From Naegleria gruberi (taxonomy: Eukaryota), in assembly GCA_000004985.1 (NCBI GenBank), contig GG738867.1: a stretch of DNA of 64,000 nucleotides, one strand, 5' to 3'. Position 1 is the stretch's first letter; every line of letters begins with the position of its first letter. The translations under genes and the position numbers were made by a program. Shown here piece by piece: positions 48,607 through 53,075 of the stretch. The notes beneath the pieces are model-generated. The model did not search any database. It saw nothing but the letters and a program-made list of their open reading frames with translations, and was not told the DNA's origin.

Positions 48607-49356
48607 ATGTCATCGATTGGAGATATGTGGGCAAGTTGGCCTTTTGTTACTAAACATTTGGGTGCCTTTTCGTTTGCCTTGACTTGTGCAGTCTCTTTCA
48701 AAATGATAAATCCATTCAATTTAGTATTATTATTTGATAGAGTGTTTAGTACAGATTTTGAAGTATGGCGTCTGATAACTAATGCTGTATTCTTTGGTGG
48801 ATTCGGAATGAATTTTCTTTTTGCATTCATGTTGTTTATTCAATACAGTTCGGAATTGGAAAAGAGTAGATTTGATGGACGTGTTGCTGATTTTATATTC
48901 TGCATCTTGTTTGGTTTGGTGCCAATGACTGTTTTGGCTTTCTTTTCTGGATCCTATGTCCTGTCCAGTTCATTAATGATGTATATGGTTTATATATGGT
49001 GTAATTATAATCCTGATAGTAATTTGAGATTAATGTTTATTCCTACTCAAATTCCGAGCAGGTGGTTCCCATTTGCTTTGACTGCATTCCATGTTGTTCT
49101 TGGTGGTGGAATTGAAACTGTCATTGAGGATGGTATTGGTATTTTGTGTGGACATTTGTATTATTTCTTGGAGGAAAAGTATCCAGAAGCTAGAGAAACA
49201 AAGATTCTCAATACTCCTTCATTGCTCTATTGGTTATTCCCTCCAGCAGCCATGGGAGGAGCTGTTCACGGTGTTCATGGAAATGCACCACCAAGAGCTG
49301 CTGCTGAACAACAAGGTCGTAGACCATTCCCAGGTCAAGGCAGAACTTTGAATTAA
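48607..49356 (+). CDS. Derlin (Der1-like ERAD membrane protein)
   Basis: MSSIGDMWASWPFVTKHLGAFSFALTCAVSF…FEVWRLITNAVFFGGFGMNFLFAFMLFIQYSSELE… A four-TM rhomboid-like Derlin signature. Confidence 0.8.
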   Translation: MSSIGDMWASWPFVTKHLGAFSFALTCAVSFKMINPFNLVLLFDRVFSTDFEVWRLITNAVFFGGFGMNFLFAFMLFIQYSSELEKSRFDGRVADFIFCILFGLVPMTVLAFFSGSYVLSSSLMMYMVYIWCNYNPDSNLRLMFIPTQIPSRWFPFALTAFHVVLGGGIETVIEDGIGILCGHLYYFLEEKYPEARETKILNTPSLLYWLFPPAAMGGAVHGVHGNAPPRAAAEQQGRRPFPGQGRTLN

Positions 49357-49372
49357 TTTTCATAAAATAATT

Positions 49373-50434
49373 TTAATTAATATTTGGGTATAATAATTCC
49401 AAAAGTTCAGGATCCGAATTATCGAAATGTTCAGATGATTGTACAGTAGATTTGAACAAGAGCTTGTCACATTCAGATGGATTAGTCTTTCTCATTTCAT
49501 GATATCTCTTGATGAGTGATCTGACATGTTGTTGAACTTTTGATAATCCATCAAGTTTGTAATATTCCTCTAATGGAGTCCATTGACAAAGATCAATCTC
49601 ATTAGGACAAGCAGCGATGGCATCTTTGTGTTCTTGAGATTTAGGTTCCAAGAGACAAATATAATAAATATCTGGAACACCAAATCTGAAATCCTTCTTG
49701 TATCTGAATCCTAAAATTCCTCTAAAATTTGTTTCCACTGAGGTTTCTTCCCAAACTTCTCTCACACAACCTTCCTCAATAAATTCATGTTTCTCCAATT
49801 GACCTCCTGGGATTTTGAATGGCTTGACATGTTTTGGTAAATCAGTTCTAATATTAATCTTTTCAGTAATTAACAAAATTTCCTCTGTTTTAAAATCCAC
49901 AACACATCCACCAGTTCCAATATAATGTTGACAAAATGGTGGATAGGTATTCTTCTCCTCAGTTGCAATCCAACGATGCAAGAAAATATATTCAGGTGTA
50001 CAGTGATGAAATTCAAATCCAAACTTTTTCAAACAAATTGGAATTAATTCACTAAACTTGGCATCAATTTTCAAATGGGCACTTCTCACTCTACTTTGGA
50101 AATCAACCTTCTTAGAAGATCTGCTTTGCCATCCAATCAAGGCTTGTTGCAAAACTTTTTCAAACTCTTCAATATTTACAATTGATGATGAATCAGAGGA
50201 TTCAATATTTACTCGGACTGCTCTATATTGATCAATATGTGCCTTCTCGAATGCTTCATGCAATGACAACCCCGAATGGCTTGATGATTTATTATTCATC
50301 ATCATGGAAGTTGAAAATTGAGAGAATTTTGTGCATGAATTCGGAAGAATTTTCTTGGTTTTCAAGAAGAAACTTGTTTGATTCTTGTTGATCAATAGCA
50401 TTCTTTGAAGGGTTCTAGTTGGAGCTAGCATCAT
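49373..50434 (-). CDS. Nudix hydrolase (NUDT6/NUDT12-like, with N-terminal pre-Nudix region)
   Basis: Nudix box GGQLEKHEFIEEGCVREVWEETSV (G-x5-E-x7-REVxEExxV). ATG at 50434. The N-terminus is basic and targeting-peptide-like. Confidence 0.75.
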   Translation of the reverse strand: MMLAPTRTLQRMLLINKNQTSFFLKTKKILPNSCTKFSQFSTSMMMNNKSSSHSGLSLHEAFEKAHIDQYRAVRVNIESSDSSSIVNIEEFEKVLQQALIGWQSRSSKKVDFQSRVRSAHLKIDAKFSELIPICLKKFGFEFHHCTPEYIFLHRWIATEEKNTYPPFCQHYIGTGGCVVDFKTEEILLITEKINIRTDLPKHVKPFKIPGGQLEKHEFIEEGCVREVWEETSVETNFRGILGFRYKKDFRFGVPDIYYICLLEPKSQEHKDAIAACPNEIDLCQWTPLEEYYKLDGLSKVQQHVRSLIKRYHEMRKTNPSECDKLLFKSTVQSSEHFDNSDPELLELLYPNIN

Positions 50435-50561
50435 CTTGTTGAGGATCCTTTGGGTATTTTTTTTTTAAATTTATTTTTAATTTTAATTTTTCAAATTCCA
50501 TAAATGGAAAATTGTAAAAGGATCTGTTGGAATTGATTGAATATTGAGAATTGAATTTGAT

Positions 50562-51467
50562 TTATTTTGAGATTTGGAATGGTTTTCTCTTTAAACAAAT
50601 TCTCTTCTTTTGATACTTTTTGCAAATTTTCTTTTGTTTCCAAATTTTGCAAATTTTCTTCTCAATTTTCCTAATGCACTTTTTGTAAACTTTTCGTTTG
50701 AGACATTTTGGCGGGAAATGTTGTTGTTGGGAACAGTATTTTTCCTTGTGGAATCGTACACATTGGAAGAATCTTCTCTTGTGTTTACAGACTTTCTTAC
50801 ACTTGAATTGGGCACAATATGAGTTTTTCCTAATTTGGAGACACTTCTTGAGGAGAATTCTTAGCTTGCAGAATTTAATTTTTCTGAATTTGACGCATTT
50901 CTTGGCGAAGGATACGATTTTGCACTTTTTCACGTGTTTGCATTTTTGTGGTTGGTAAGAATCGACTGATTTCGAATAAGAATCACAAATCTTTTTGGTT
51001 TCACACTTTCTTATTGGAACCTTCTTGTACTTTCTGCATACCTTTCGTTCTCCATGCTTGACACACTTTGGAATAAAGGTACGCTTTGCACAATAGTGAT
51101 GGAATGCCTTTTTAGTACAGATTCGTCTAGTTCCGTATTGATCACAAGTTGACCATCCTCTTCTATCAGCACATTTAGTTCTTCTGAATCCGAACTTGAT
51201 GCATTTTCTCTTTGGTTTTCCAAGTTTGATGCATTTGCAGAACTTTTTGAATTTGACACATTTGGTGATTTTTGAATGGTGTGCGCAAACTTTGAACTTT
51301 TTGAATTTCAAACACTTTCCTCTGATTATCTTCTTATGTAGACAGTGTTTTCTTCTTGGACTTGGATTATATTGGTCCACATTCGAATAAGAATCGACAG
51401 GAACAGAACAAGAAACTAAACTAATCAATAGAATAATGGCAAGAGTAAGAACCAGATGAGTTTTCAT
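50562..51467 (-). CDS. Secreted, extremely basic Lys/Arg- and Cys-rich repetitive protein (about 45 Cys and about 90 Lys/Arg in 302 aa)
   Basis: True ATG at 51467 gives MKTHLVLTLAIILLISLVSCS (signal peptide; the track start 51527 is GTG). It is followed by degenerate KC.KFKKF.KC / KKC.K.RK-type repeats up to the stop. Confidence 0.55.
   Translation of the reverse strand: MKTHLVLTLAIILLISLVSCSVPVDSYSNVDQYNPSPRRKHCLHKKIIRGKCLKFKKFKVCAHHSKITKCVKFKKFCKCIKLGKPKRKCIKFGFRRTKCADRRGWSTCDQYGTRRICTKKAFHHYCAKRTFIPKCVKHGERKVCRKYKKVPIRKCETKKICDSYSKSVDSYQPQKCKHVKKCKIVSFAKKCVKFRKIKFCKLRILLKKCLQIRKNSYCAQFKCKKVCKHKRRFFQCVRFHKEKYCSQQQHFPPKCLKRKVYKKCIRKIEKKICKIWKQKKICKKYQKKRICLKRKPFQISK
50705..50718. promoter_or_regulatory. 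Canonical E2F-type element TTTTGGCGGGAAAT; inside the 3' end of the Lys/Cys-rich ORF and about 270 bp upstream of the Nudix ATG
   Basis: Exact TTTGGCGGGAAA. Confidence 0.3.
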
Positions 51468-51767
51468 GTTGATGCTGTTTTTTTCTAATAATAATTTGAT
51501 TTTATAATTATGAACGTTATTAATCACATTAAATGAAACTCAAATTCCAAAATACCAAAAATGGTAAGAAAGTTAACAACAATTTATTAAAAATTTACAA
51601 AAAATTAAAGACTGCAACTCAACATATTTCATTCCAATTCAGTATTTAAGCAATATTTATCAATGTAATTTAACCTTGACATGTTCCAATTCATAAATAG
51701 AAAGGAAACGATTGTCAATTAAATGATCTCACAAATTCGAAAGATTCATTTAGCACCAAAGTATTTA

Positions 51768-52553
51768 TTAACATTTTTGGCAATAAGATGGAATAACATA
51801 ATCAGCATCAGTATTAAAAGGTTTGAAATTCCAACTTCCTCCACTATATGAAGAAACACTTATCATTCCTCCATTCGAATCAACAACTTGTGTTTTTCCT
51901 TCCATGGAAATAATAGCACAATCATAAAAACATGGATATGGATCTGGATATGGAAGTGGAGGGGCCTTTCTTTGAATTGGTTGGACAATTAGGGTGTCAA
52001 TTTCAGTAGTATTCGAATTCACCTGCTTTCGTCTAACAAATTTTTGAGCTTTAACATGATCTTCAGTTTCAATTCCAATGGCAATGTCACCTTCAAAGTC
52101 AAAATCAAATTCTACGCATGTGACCATCAACATTTCACCTTGTTTAGTTAACTTTCTACAAGAGCAAGAAGTACCATTGAAAGTATACTCAACACCAAAA
52201 CTGGAAGGATACGGATCCATGAATCCCATAACTGTATTATCAACAACTAGTTGACCATTTATTTCAATACGGGAATCTAAACGATAACGACGATTATAGA
52301 AATCTGGCATGTGTCTTTGACGAAAAACTCCAAAACCAGAATTACAATTCATGCCATTACAATTTTCCAACATGGTTTTACTTCCTTCGAAATGGAAAGT
52401 ATGTTGACGAGGCATGCAACATGTGTGCATTGGCTGTTGTTGTTGATGAGATGATGTTGCAGGATAATTCTTCAATGGCGAGATGGCACATGTGAACGCA
52501 GCAAATGATACAAGAAGTAACAAGACAGAGGTGGCATTAAGGTACTTGACCAT
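51768..52553 (-). CDS. Hypothetical secreted Cys-containing protein
   Basis: ATG at 52553. N-terminus MVKYLNATSVLLLLVSFAAFTCA is a signal peptide. 261 aa with multiple Cys. Confidence 0.5.
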   Translation of the reverse strand: MVKYLNATSVLLLLVSFAAFTCAISPLKNYPATSSHQQQQPMHTCCMPRQHTFHFEGSKTMLENCNGMNCNSGFGVFRQRHMPDFYNRRYRLDSRIEINGQLVVDNTVMGFMDPYPSSFGVEYTFNGTSCSCRKLTKQGEMLMVTCVEFDFDFEGDIAIGIETEDHVKAQKFVRRKQVNSNTTEIDTLIVQPIQRKAPPLPYPDPYPCFYDCAIISMEGKTQVVDSNGGMISVSSYSGGSWNFKPFNTDADYVIPSYCQKC

Positions 52554-52825
52554 TTTTTTTTGGAGATTGAGTGATAATTAGCCGAAAGGAAATTGAAATA
52601 CGGAGATCGGAGACAGATAATTGAGGAGTTGGGCTGAGCTCTATACAATCTATTATCCCTTTTGAATGGCTATTTGGCTAATTAATTCTTGTTCCTTCAA
52701 CTCTGTACTTATACTTGTGAATTCCAAAAATCAATTAATTGCAGCCTCTACATTGCAATTGTAGGAACATAGTGATTTAGACTTACTAATCGATCAGTAT
52801 CTCCCTATTTGAACATAATCACGAA

Positions 52826-52906
52826 GCAGACTTGGCCGAGAGGTTAAGGCGCGAGACTCGAAATCTCGTGGGGAAACCTTCGTAGGTTCGAATCCTGCAG
52901 TCTGCG
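52826..52906 (+). tRNA. tRNA-Ser (anticodon CGA)
   Basis: GCAGACTTGGCCGAGAGGTTAAGGCGCGAGACTCGAAATCTCGTGGGGAAACCTTCGTAGGTTCGAATCCTGCAGTCTGCG. It has a long variable arm typical of Ser. The anticodon loop is CTCGAAA and a T-run follows. Confidence 0.9.
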
Positions 52907-53075
52907 TCTGAAATTTTGATTGTATTTTTTCTAATCTCTTTTTTCAGATAACTGACCTTAAATCCATGTTTCTAATGGTGGATCAAAAAACTACAAGGGT
53001 GGTTTGATGAAAATTGTTTAATAAAATTGTTTTAAATAAATTTTTTTTGATTCAAATAGAAAAAAATTTAAGGGA

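What the first reader, a model, noticed from the sequence alone, without database searches (positions are those of the whole stretch)
50562..51467. Secreted protein that is about 30% Lys/Arg and about 15% Cys with degenerate KC.KFKKF repeats
A signal peptide is followed by about 280 aa with extreme positive charge and regularly spaced cysteines. The composition is reminiscent of antimicrobial or cell-wall/cyst-wall cysteine-rich proteins, or of nucleic-acid/polyanion-binding proteins. I recognise no known domain, so the family may be uncharacterised. The DNA is low-complexity and several alternative-frame ORFs overlap it, so real coding status needs support.
Basis: seen in the sequence. Interest (0 to 1): 0.5.

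Follow-up and report, generated by a model that had tools for sequence, protein, structure and literature searches.

The report
Secreted lysine/cysteine repeat protein, Naegleria family
This is a real Naegleria gruberi gene for a secreted, extremely basic protein with one cysteine about every ninth residue; it belongs to an unstudied gene family found across the genus Naegleria, including the brain-eating N. fowleri, and its function is still only a guess.

Summary
The ORF is real and sits where stated, on the minus strand (50562..51467). It is the annotated N. gruberi gene NAEGRDRAFT_67458, 301 aa, "predicted protein".

- The mature protein is 34.6% Lys+Arg.
- Cys is 10.7%, not 15%.
- The most striking feature was under-described: 17 of 29 Cys-to-Cys gaps are exactly 9 residues (shuffle mean 1.3, maximum 8 in 20,000).

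Coding status is well supported. The open frame is 325 codons, against a maximum of 170 in 1,000 dinucleotide shuffles. A published Phobius run predicts a signal peptide and no transmembrane helix. Homologues keep 83-93% of the Cys positions while other residues are only 18-44% identical.

It is not an orphan. A Naegleria pangenome paper places it in the "core" orthogroup OG0000016, with 4 N. gruberi genes and about 7-9 per N. fowleri strain. I confirmed a collinear paralogue, soil-metagenome relatives and an N. fowleri member.

There is no Pfam or PDB match, and AlphaFold2 models are poor. I found no expression or localisation data.

The best inference (about 0.4) is a disulfide-braced polycationic matrix, wall or adhesive protein. 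An antibacterial polycation is the main rival.

This is an uncharacterised family rather than a new principle, so interest is moderate.

The parts
50562..51467 (-). Complete single-exon CDS of NAEGRDRAFT_67458 (XP_002677436.1 / EFC44692.1 / D2VF04), 301 aa plus the stop codon at 50562-50564
   Evidence: ORF list and translation. 100% match to the N. gruberi predicted protein. The open frame is 325 codons against a maximum of 170 in 1,000 dinucleotide shuffles. Its codon score is the best of the six frames.
51405..51467 (-). Signal peptide, residues 1-21 (MKTHLVLTLAIILLISLVSCS). The cleavage site after Ser21 is inferred.
   Evidence: Published Phobius result: TM 0, SP Y. Homologues P0005, P0008 and N. 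fowleri P0011 also begin with hydrophobic signal-like segments ending in AxA-type sites. The cleavage position is my inference from the -3/-1 rule and from alignment of the following VDSY motif.
51345..51404 (-). N-terminal Cys-free linker, residues 22-41 (VPVDSYSNVDQYNPSPRRKH), with two [VI]DxY motifs
   Evidence: The motif is conserved in P0005 and P0008 (TVDSY...VDKY).
50985..51344 (-). Repeat module A, residues 42-161: 16 Cys, mostly spaced 9-10 residues apart, very Lys/Arg-rich
   Evidence: It aligns collinearly with P0005 and the paralogue D2W3K5, with Cys columns kept.
50943..50984 (-). Central Cys-free linker, residues 162-175 (DSYSKSVDSYQPQK), carrying a conserved VDSY-x-P motif
   Evidence: The aligned positions read TVDSYAPKK in P0005 and P0008 and VDPYAPSR in D2W3K5. 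Related (I/V)DSYKP tandem copies occur at the C-terminus of N. fowleri P0011.
50595..50942 (-). Repeat module B, residues 176-291: 14 Cys, mostly spaced 9 residues apart
   Evidence: It is homologous to the C-terminal 140 aa of N. gruberi NAEGRDRAFT_76199, to P0007, to P0010/L001 and to D2W3K5. It shows weak similarity to module A, consistent with an old internal duplication.
50565..50594 (-). Short basic C-terminal tail, residues 292-301 (LKRKPFQISK). It has no hydrophobic GPI-type or TM segment and no KDEL-type retention signal.
   Evidence: Read directly from the sequence. Phobius predicts 0 TM.

Best explanation
Shown:
- This is a genuine single-exon Naegleria gruberi gene (NAEGRDRAFT_67458).
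- It encodes a protein with a signal peptide and no transmembrane helix. The mature part is about 34 kDa with a net charge of about +87.
- The mature part has two arrays, 16 and 14 Cys, built from old, diverged units of about 9 residues that each end in a cysteine. Both arrays are preceded by short Cys-free linkers carrying a [VI]DxY motif (VDSY/VDQY).
- It belongs to a Naegleria-wide multigene family of Lys/Tyr(Phe)/Cys-rich proteins, orthogroup OG0000016.
- Across that family the cysteines are by far the most conserved residues.

Inferred:
- After secretion the 30 cysteines form disulfides. The count is even here, and the N. fowleri homologue has 32.
- The disulfides would brace the chain, or link chains to each other, into a stiff, protease-resistant polycation.
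- That polycation would stick electrostatically to polyanionic material such as acidic wall glycans, substratum or biofilm. It could be cross-linked further through Tyr, Lys and Cys.
- On this reading it is a structural or adhesive component of an extracellular layer, and the cyst wall is the most obvious candidate.

My confidence is about 0.9 that it is a real secreted member of this family. It is about 0.4 for the structural/adhesive mechanism, which is the figure given in the confidence field.
For: Real gene:
- The open frame is 325 codons against a maximum of 170 in 1,000 dinucleotide shuffles, and other frames carry 11-33 stops.
- Its codon score is the highest of the six frames.
- It fills a gene-sized slot between a Nudix gene and another secreted-protein gene in a compact region.

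Secretion:
- Phobius predicts a signal peptide and no TM for 67458 and for the paralogue 75973.
- Signal-like N-termini are present in the homologues.
- There is no GPI-like or TM tail.

Family:
- Exhaustive phmmer finds P0005 (E 4e-43), the N. gruberi paralogue segment P0006 (2e-18), P0007 and P0008.
- Profile searches add P0010 and N. fowleri FDP41_004030 (E 1.5e-27).
- PMC9928731 lists EFC44692.1 in core orthogroup OG0000016, with 4 N. gruberi members and 7-9 N. fowleri genes per strain.
- The group's representative, D2W3K5, aligns collinearly over both modules.

Structural constraint on Cys:
- 17 of 29 gaps equal 9 residues (shuffle mean 1.3).
- Cys are kept at 19/21, 26/28, 13/15, 12/13, 10/12 and 25/30 aligned positions, while non-Cys, non-basic residues are 18-44% identical.
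- TGT and TGC are mixed 19:12 and the units are only 39% identical at DNA level. The periodicity is therefore maintained at the protein level and is not a recent DNA repeat.
- Cys counts in the mature proteins are even, 30 and 32.

Hints of abundance:
- The C-ending fraction of two-fold pyrimidine codons is 0.51, against 0.12-0.34 in 26 other ORFs of the window. TTC:TTT is 16:1.
- The metagenomic homologue has AAG:AAA 42:7 and TTC:TTT 6:0, unlike its neighbours.

Cross-linkable chemistry: family members are rich in Tyr and Lys as well as Cys, and N. fowleri P0011 ends in four tandem (I/V)D(S/T)YKP copies.

Precedent: lineage-specific multi-copy Cys-domain proteins are the main cyst-wall proteins of Acanthamoeba, including Leo lectins with 8-Cys domains and Thr/Lys/His-rich spacers (PMC6541295).
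Against: - No expression, proteomic or localisation record was found for this gene or its N. fowleri relatives.
- The JGI model name (fgeneshNG_pg) indicates an ab initio model without EST extension.
- Neither disulfide bonding nor any binding partner is shown.
- AlphaFold2 gave low-confidence models (mean pLDDT 44.6 and 47.6), so there is no fold to argue from.
- A Fourier analysis of hydrophobicity shows no clear beta (period 2) or alpha (period 3.6) amphipathic signal, only a weak period 3 (z 2.4).
- A net charge near +87 fits an antibacterial or polyanion-packaging role equally well.
- The codon-bias hint may partly reflect inheritance from a common repeat unit. In this gene AAG:AAA is unremarkable (33:41).
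Confidence: 0.4

Rival explanations
1. It is an antibacterial or prey-binding polycation. The protein, or fragments cut at its many dibasic sites, would be delivered to phagosomes or the medium. There the disulfide-stabilised cationic segments would bind and permeabilise or agglutinate negatively charged bacterial envelopes, much as cationic disulfide-braced peptides do.
For: It has a signal peptide, extreme positive charge and mixed hydrophobic/basic units (consensus h-K-(Y/F/K)-K-x-h-K-(h/K)-C). Naegleria feeds on bacteria (established knowledge). The family is multi-copy and fast-evolving, with 25-55% identity between members, which is common for immune-type effectors. Dibasic motifs occur throughout the sequence.
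Against: Mature lengths of 280-350 residues and a collinear two-module architecture conserved from N. gruberi to N. fowleri fit an intact structural protein better than a peptide precursor. No unit is flanked by a consistent processing site. No amphipathic periodicity was detected. The [VI]DxY motifs and the DSYKP tandem copies have no obvious role in an antimicrobial. No activity data exist.
Confidence: 0.25
2. It is a lumenal polyanion-packaging protein. It would stay inside the secretory or endolysosomal system and condense a polyanion such as polyphosphate, sulfated or acidic glycans, or nucleic acid from digested prey, acting as a counter-ion scaffold.
For: It has very high positive charge with few acidic residues, enters the secretory pathway, has no membrane anchor and has no N-glycosylation sequons.
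Against: No retention or sorting signal is recognisable. Nothing explains the strict Cys periodicity better than extracellular stabilisation does. No data exist.
Confidence: 0.1
3. It is a metal-binding, metallothionein-like protein that uses its Cys and His residues to bind metal.
For: It has 30 Cys and 11 His in 280 mature residues.
Against: There are no CxC or CxxC clusters except one C-K-C; the cysteines are isolated at 9-residue spacing. A signal peptide directs it to an oxidising compartment. It was not found in the held supplementary files of an N. gruberi copper-response study with proteomics.
Confidence: 0.04
4. It is not a functional gene. On this reading a chance ORF in A-rich, low-complexity DNA was picked up by an ab initio gene finder.
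For: The model is ab initio (fgeneshNG_pg) and I found no transcript evidence. One metagenomic homologue carries an in-frame TAG.
Against: The ORF is about twice the longest seen in 1,000 shuffles. Homologues in other Naegleria lineages keep the frame, the signal peptide and 83-93% of the Cys positions despite 25-55% overall identity. The periodicity is preserved at the protein level and not at the DNA level.
Confidence: 0.03

Closest known systems
Naegleria orthogroup OG0000016 of the genus pangenome (PMC9928731). The representative is N. gruberi NAEGRDRAFT_75973 / D2W3K5, and N. fowleri FDP41_004030 is a homologue I confirmed here.
   Same: Direct homologues. They share the signal peptide, the two collinear Lys/Cys repeat modules, the conserved Cys columns and the linker motif (VDSY here, VDPY in D2W3K5).
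   Different: This copy uses Phe where many paralogues use Tyr (17 Phe and 11 Tyr here; 11 Phe and 44 Tyr in the N. fowleri protein). It lacks the C-terminal DSYKP tandem copies. The family itself has no assigned function or Pfam model.
Acanthamoeba Leo lectins (8-Cys domains, some with Thr/Lys/His-rich spacers) and Entamoeba Jacob lectins (6-Cys domains), which are cyst-wall proteins
   Same: They are lineage-restricted, multi-copy, signal-peptide proteins built from Cys-rich units plus low-complexity linkers, and some are basic (PMC6541295). They are a functional analogy for a wall protein.
   Different: No sequence relationship was detected, and I did not align them directly. Leo and Jacob lectins have compact 8-Cys or 6-Cys domains, not a roughly 9-residue single-Cys periodicity. 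Most Leo lectins are acidic. Wall localisation and glycan binding are shown for them and not for this protein.
Insect and marine secreted structural or adhesive proteins with periodic Cys and high Lys/Tyr content, such as Chironomus Balbiani-ring secretory proteins and mussel or sandcastle-worm cement proteins (recalled from general knowledge, not tested here)
   Same: They are secreted, strongly basic and built from short tandem units with regularly spaced Cys and/or Tyr-Lys-Pro motifs. They assemble by disulfide or quinone cross-linking and by electrostatic binding to polyanions.
   Different: They have no homology with this protein and come from different organisms. The repeat lengths and motifs differ. 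The resemblance is compositional only.
Cationic disulfide-stabilised antimicrobial peptides such as defensins, tachyplesin and protegrin, and granulins
   Same: They are cationic, Cys-containing and secreted.
   Different: Those are single knots or hairpins of 18-60 residues with fixed multi-Cys patterns, and granulins have CC pairs. Here about 30 isolated Cys run through about 280 residues, with no CC pair and no match to any defensin or granulin Pfam model.

Membership tests
Naegleria OG0000016 (Lys/Tyr/Cys-rich secreted repeat proteins, uncharacterised) | Listed in the orthogroup by an independent all-against-all clustering | tested here: met
   EFC44692.1 appears in OG0000016 with EFC36348.1, EFC38066.1, EFC42971.1 and the N. 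fowleri members. The group is labelled 'core' (PMC9928731 supplements).
Naegleria OG0000016 (Lys/Tyr/Cys-rich secreted repeat proteins, uncharacterised) | Collinear alignment with conserved Cys framework | tested here: met
   Against D2W3K5: 35% identity over 243 aligned positions, with 26/28 Cys kept. Against N. fowleri P0011: 25/30 Cys kept, hmmsearch E 1.5e-27.
Naegleria OG0000016 (Lys/Tyr/Cys-rich secreted repeat proteins, uncharacterised) | N-terminal signal peptide and no TM helix | tested here: met
   Phobius table: 67458 and 75973 are both TM 0 and SP Y. Signal-like N-termini are present in P0005, P0008 and P0011.
Defensins / granulins | Compact domain with a fixed 6-8 Cys (defensin) or 12 Cys (granulin, with CC pairs) pattern, and a Pfam model match | tested here: not met
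   Cys gaps are 9-10 residues along the whole chain and there are no CC pairs. There are no Pfam hits at E <= 10.
Twin CX9C (CHCH) proteins | Pairs of Cys separated by exactly nine residues in a helix-turn-helix, with no signal peptide (mitochondrial intermembrane space) | tested here: not met
   The dominant spacing is CX8C (gap 9), repeated about 28 times, and a signal peptide is present. No CHCH Pfam hit.
Metallothioneins | Cys at about 25-30% in CxC/CxxC clusters, cytosolic | tested here: not met
   Cys is 10.7% and isolated, with a single C-K-C, and the protein enters the secretory pathway.
Known protist cyst-wall protein families (Giardia CWP with LRR, Entamoeba Jacob/Jessie chitin-binding domains, Acanthamoeba Luke with CBM49 and Jonah with CAA) | Presence of the defining domain (LRR, chitin-binding, CBM49 or CAA) | tested here: not met
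   No Pfam domain of any kind was found. This lowers the claim of membership, not the possibility of an analogous wall role.
Known protist cyst-wall protein families | Encystment-induced expression and localisation in the wall | not testable with these tools
   No N. gruberi encystment transcriptome or cyst-wall proteome was found in the searchable library.
Protamine / histone H1-like nucleic-acid condensers | Nuclear targeting and absence of a signal peptide | tested here: not met
   A signal peptide is predicted, and signal-like N-termini recur in the full-length homologues.

The most novel reading that the evidence does not exclude
The OG0000016 proteins may be the principal structural proteins of an extracellular layer of Naegleria, most plausibly the cyst wall. 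They would be built on a previously undescribed architecture, in which about 28 nine-residue units with one Cys each form a disulfide ladder with a polycationic surface. In that case the N. fowleri members would be genus-specific, abundant, surface-exposed markers or targets.
Probability: 0.25. Interest if true: 0.6.

Novelty: new variant of a known kind. Interest (0 to 1): 0.38.

Why it matters
Naegleria cyst walls and secreted matrices are almost uncharacterised at the protein level, yet cysts are how N. fowleri persists in water systems.

A genus-wide, multi-copy, secreted family has no homologues that my searches could detect outside Naegleria-like organisms. That makes it a concrete candidate for wall, adhesion or prey-handling functions. 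It could also supply genus-specific diagnostic antigens.

The strict CX8C periodicity on a net charge of about +87 is also an unusual protein design, and its fold is not predictable with current tools.

If the family proves to be just another fast-evolving secreted protein of minor abundance, the finding is of local interest only.

Tried and rejected
Searches that found little or nothing:
- Single-sequence word-indexed homology search returned only the protein itself. The exhaustive phmmer search and two profile searches were needed to find relatives, and even these missed most N. fowleri members listed in the literature orthogroup.
- Pfam at E <= 10 and a PDB profile search at E <= 1 found nothing.
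- Rfam over 49000-53000 found only a neighbouring tRNA and nothing over the gene.
- tblastn of family members against the window found no second copy.
- The look-up of encoding contigs found no record for the query, P0005 or P0006, so I could not inspect the paralogue's scaffold or look for transcript assemblies.
- Two metagenome scans found no further loci, and the alignment was too variable for a pattern-based scan.

Structure:
- AlphaFold2 was run twice, on the single sequence and on a 6-sequence alignment. Mean pLDDT was 44.6 and 47.6. Only a long hairpin around the central linker (138-161 / 176-200) was confident.
- I did not run fold searches, because low-confidence models give meaningless matches.
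- I first read the unit consensus as an amphipathic beta-strand centred on Cys. The hydrophobicity spectrum does not support period 2 or its 9-residue harmonics, so I dropped that claim.

Expression:
- Accession and locus-tag searches of the full-text library returned 0 papers.
- Supplement searches found nothing in an N. gruberi copper-metabolism study with proteomics.
- They also found nothing in three N. fowleri data sets: cyst/trophozoite RNA-seq, a genomics and transcriptomics study, and a co-culture study.
- These files were partly truncated when stored, so absence is weak evidence.

Rejected family assignments: defensin, granulin, twin-CX9C, metallothionein and protamine-like. Reasons are in the membership table.
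Full report
**Identity of the window and the feature**

The window is Naegleria gruberi nuclear DNA. The ORF at 50562..51467 on the minus strand translates to a 301-aa protein. It is 100% identical to "predicted protein [Naegleria gruberi]", NAEGRDRAFT_67458 / XP_002677436.1 / EFC44692.1 / UniProt D2VF04.

The region is gene-dense with about 32-33% G+C. Neighbours on the same strand are a Nudix hydrolase (49373..50434) and another signal-peptide protein without Pfam domains (51768..52553). A Der1-like gene lies further along.

**Checking the observation**

The mature part (residues 22-301) has these properties:
- 34.6% Lys+Arg and 3.6% Asp+Glu.
- Net charge about +87, computed pI about 10.3 and mass about 34 kDa.

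The motif KC[LV]KF[KR]K occurs three times. The stronger regularity is the cysteine spacing. 17 of 29 successive Cys-Cys gaps are exactly 9 residues and 21 of 29 are 9 or 10. In 20,000 shuffles of the mature sequence the mean number of 9-gaps is 1.3 and the maximum is 8.

The protein divides into seven parts:
- Signal peptide, residues 1-21.
- A Cys-free linker with VDSY and VDQY, residues 22-41.
- Repeat module A, residues 42-161, with 16 Cys.
- A Cys-free linker DSYSKSVDSYQPQK, residues 162-175.
- Repeat module B, residues 176-291, with 14 Cys.
- A ten-residue basic tail, residues 292-301.
- The stop codon at 50562-50564.

There are no N-glycosylation sequons.

**Is it coding?**

- The open frame is 325 codons. 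1,000 dinucleotide-preserving shuffles of the same region give a mean longest open frame of 85 and a maximum of 170. The other five frames carry 11-33 stops.
- A codon log-odds score trained on the other long ORFs of the window is highest for this frame (+0.13 against -0.06 to -0.68).
- TRF finds no 27-nt tandem array.
- The seventeen exact 27-nt units are on average 39% identical at DNA level (maximum 70%, composition expectation 29%) and 24% identical at protein level.
- Cys codons are a 19:12 mix of TGT and TGC.

The periodic cysteines are thus maintained at the protein level in old, diverged repeats. They are not a by-product of a recent low-complexity DNA expansion.

Rfam finds nothing over the gene.

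**Signal peptide**

I could not run SignalP. The Acrasis kona genome paper (PMC11589745, Supplementary Data 1) gives Phobius predictions for the whole N. gruberi proteome. It lists jgi|Naegr1|67458 with 0 transmembrane helices and signal peptide = Y.

Full-length relatives have equivalent N-termini ending in AxA-type sites...VQADA|TVDSY in P0005 and ...AVSA|DTYKPP in the N. fowleri protein. The C-terminus is hydrophilic, so no GPI anchor or membrane anchor is expected.

Cleavage after Ser21 is my inference. It would leave 30 Cys, and the N. fowleri homologue would have 32, both even numbers.

**Relatives**

The first word-indexed search returned only the protein itself. The exhaustive phmmer search of 1.84 billion representatives returned five real or apparent hits:
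- P0005: 232 aa, from a soil read set, E 4e-43, 55% identity, with a signal peptide.
- P0008: 125 aa, from the same read set.
- P0007: 147 aa, from another soil read set.
- P0006: N. gruberi NAEGRDRAFT_76199. Only its last 140 residues are homologous. Its N-terminus has SAM and PB1 domains, so it is probably a fused gene model.
- P0009: an unrelated repetitive protein that I regard as spurious.

Profile searches added two more. P0010 lies on a 3-kb JGI metagenome contig (L001), where the reading frame continues upstream through one in-frame TAG. N. fowleri FDP41_004030 (P0011, 379 aa, E 1.5e-27) is encoded by a gene with introns in a non-syntenic locus (L002).

The decisive lead came from the literature. 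The supplementary tables of the Naegleria pangenome paper (PMC9928731) place EFC44692.1 in OrthoFinder group OG0000016, labelled "core". The other listed members are:
- Three further N. gruberi proteins: EFC36348.1, EFC38066.1 and EFC42971.1.
- Seven N. fowleri ATCC 30894 proteins.
- Nine ATCC 30863 genes.
- Seven V212 genes.
- Further strains, in a row that was cut off in the stored file.

The representative printed there is D2W3K5 (NAEGRDRAFT_75973). It aligns collinearly with both modules and the central linker of the query.

The protein is therefore not an orphan. It is one copy of a genus-wide multigene family that has been clustered but never described. No second copy lies in this window.

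**What is conserved**

Relative to the query, cysteines are kept at these aligned positions:
- 19/21 in P0005.
- 26/28 in D2W3K5.
- 13/15 in the 76199 C-terminus.
- 12/13 in P0007.
- 10/12 in L001.
- 25/30 in N. fowleri P0011.

Lys/Arg positions stay basic in 68-92% of cases. All other residues are only 18-44% identical.

Pooling 45 exact nine-residue units from five homologues gives the consensus h-K-(Y/F/K)-K-x-h-K-(h/K)-C.

A [VI]DxY motif, often followed by Pro, recurs in three places:
- After the signal peptide.
- Between the two modules.
- At the C-terminus of relatives, as tandem copies. N. fowleri has IDTYKPAIDSYKPTIDSYKPKIDSYKP and L001 has RRVDVYKRKPDVYKKRRVDIYKK.

Most paralogues are much richer in Tyr than this copy, which often has Phe instead.

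**Structure**

There is no Pfam hit even at E <= 10 and no PDB sequence hit at E <= 1.

AlphaFold2 gave mean pLDDT 44.6 without an alignment and 47.6 with six sequences. Only a long two-stranded ribbon flanking the central linker (about 138-161 and 176-200) reached pLDDT 79-93. The C-terminal units were modelled as a low-confidence helix.

I first read the unit consensus as an amphipathic beta-strand centred on Cys. A Fourier analysis of hydrophobicity shows no excess at period 2, period 3.6 or the relevant 9-residue harmonics, only a weak period-3 signal (z 2.4). The secondary structure is unresolved, and I did not run fold searches on these models.

**Expression**

I found no direct evidence.
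- Locus tags and accessions of this gene, its paralogues and the N. fowleri members appear in no main text of the searchable library.
- They are absent from the held supplements of an N. gruberi copper-metabolism study with proteomics.
- They are also absent from the held supplements of three N. fowleri omics papers.
- Those files are partly truncated. A protein that is 35% Lys/Arg would also be nearly invisible to tryptic proteomics.
- The JGI model name (fgeneshNG_pg) indicates an ab initio model.

Indirect hints point to high expression.
- The C-ending fraction of two-fold pyrimidine codons is 0.51, against 0.12-0.34 in the 26 other long ORFs of the window. Phe is TTC 16:1.
- The metagenomic homologue shows AAG:AAA 42:7 and TTC:TTT 6:0, unlike its neighbours.
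- Part of this bias could be inherited from an ancestral repeat unit, so I treat it as a hint only.

**Mechanism**

Shown:
- It enters the secretory pathway and has no membrane anchor.
- It is extremely polycationic.
- It has about 28 diverged nine-residue units with one strongly conserved Cys each.
- It has linker motifs containing Tyr.
- It belongs to a multigene family conserved across the genus.

Inferred:
- In the oxidising secretory pathway the 30 Cys form disulfides, either between neighbouring units or between molecules.
- This would give a stiff, protease-resistant polycation that binds polyanionic material.
- Because the family combines Cys, Lys and Tyr with Tyr-Lys-Pro-type motifs, oxidative cross-linking is plausible.

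I therefore favour a structural or adhesive extracellular matrix role, with the cyst wall as the obvious candidate (about 0.4). This parallels the lineage-specific, multi-copy Cys-domain lectins that dominate the Acanthamoeba cyst wall (PMC6541295).

Rivals:
- The main rival (about 0.25) is an antibacterial or prey-binding polycation, possibly processed at dibasic sites.
- Less likely are lumenal polyanion packaging (0.1), metal binding (0.04) and a non-functional ORF (0.03).

**Comparison with known families**

So do twin-CX9C proteins (the spacing here is CX8C and there is a signal peptide), metallothioneins and protamine-like proteins. The details are in the membership table.

The domains that define the known protist cyst-wall proteins (LRR, chitin-binding, CBM49, CAA) are absent. 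That argues against membership, not against an analogous role.

Compositional analogues recalled from general knowledge include Balbiani-ring secretory proteins and marine cement proteins. They are leads only.

**Verdict**

The gene is real and already annotated as a predicted protein. It belongs to an uncharacterised secreted family that is core across Naegleria genomes and has no detectable relatives outside Naegleria-like organisms in about 15 billion proteins searched.

This is a new variant of a familiar kind, the secreted Cys-repeat basic protein, and not a new principle. Interest is moderate. It would rise if the family proved to be a main cyst-wall or adhesion component, especially in N. 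fowleri.

Noticed in passing
window 51768..52553 (-): The immediately upstream gene on the same strand, NAEGRDRAFT_67459 (261 aa, 12 Cys, pI 6.3), is also predicted by Phobius to have a signal peptide and no TM helix. It has no Pfam match. One ENA-derived protein (P0003) shares its 90%-identity cluster. So two uncharacterised secreted proteins sit side by side.
   Followed up: partly
window 52826..52906 (+): A tRNA-Ser (anticodon CGA) gene lies in the intergenic region upstream of that neighbour. Rfam scores it at 59.7 bits and ARAGORN agrees.
   Followed up: yes
N. gruberi NAEGRDRAFT_76199 (P0006, 443 aa; scaffold not retrievable here): This gene model joins cytosolic SAM and PB1 domains to a 140-aa Lys/Cys repeat module homologous to module B of the query. 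It is most likely a mis-fused ab initio model. If so, the true paralogue's 5' part is unannotated.
   Followed up: partly
L001 1..453 (+) (JGI metagenome 3300002220 contig): The homologue's reading frame continues upstream of the called gene through a single in-frame TAG (...KKRCCY*KKIKFC...). This could be a sequencing error, a pseudogene or a recoded stop. The gene shows strong AAG and TTC codon preference, unlike its neighbours.
   Followed up: partly
window 50562..51467 (-): The gene is a codon-usage outlier. Its C-ending fraction of two-fold pyrimidine codons is 0.51, against 0.12-0.34 in 26 other long ORFs of the window, and TTC:TTT is 16:1. This may reflect translational selection in an abundantly expressed gene, or inheritance from an ancestral repeat unit.
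   Followed up: partly
L002 6001..7343 (+) (N. fowleri VFQX01000036.1): The N. fowleri family member FDP41_004030 has introns, shown by in-frame stops between the coding pieces. It ends in four tandem (I/V)D(S/T)YKP copies and lies next to a ribosomal protein S24e gene. Its locus is not syntenic with the N. gruberi window.
   Followed up: partly
residues 138-200 of the protein (window about 50868..51056, -): Both AlphaFold2 runs placed a long two-stranded beta ribbon around the central VDSY linker. With the 6-sequence alignment its pLDDT reached 79-93, while the rest of the chain stayed below 50. I cannot tell whether this is a real hairpin or an artefact.
   Followed up: no
searches: HMMER-based searches of billions of proteins missed most N. 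fowleri and N. gruberi paralogues that OrthoFinder had grouped with this protein. I suspect composition-bias correction and word-index limits. For proteins this biased, 'no homologues found' is unreliable.
   Followed up: partly
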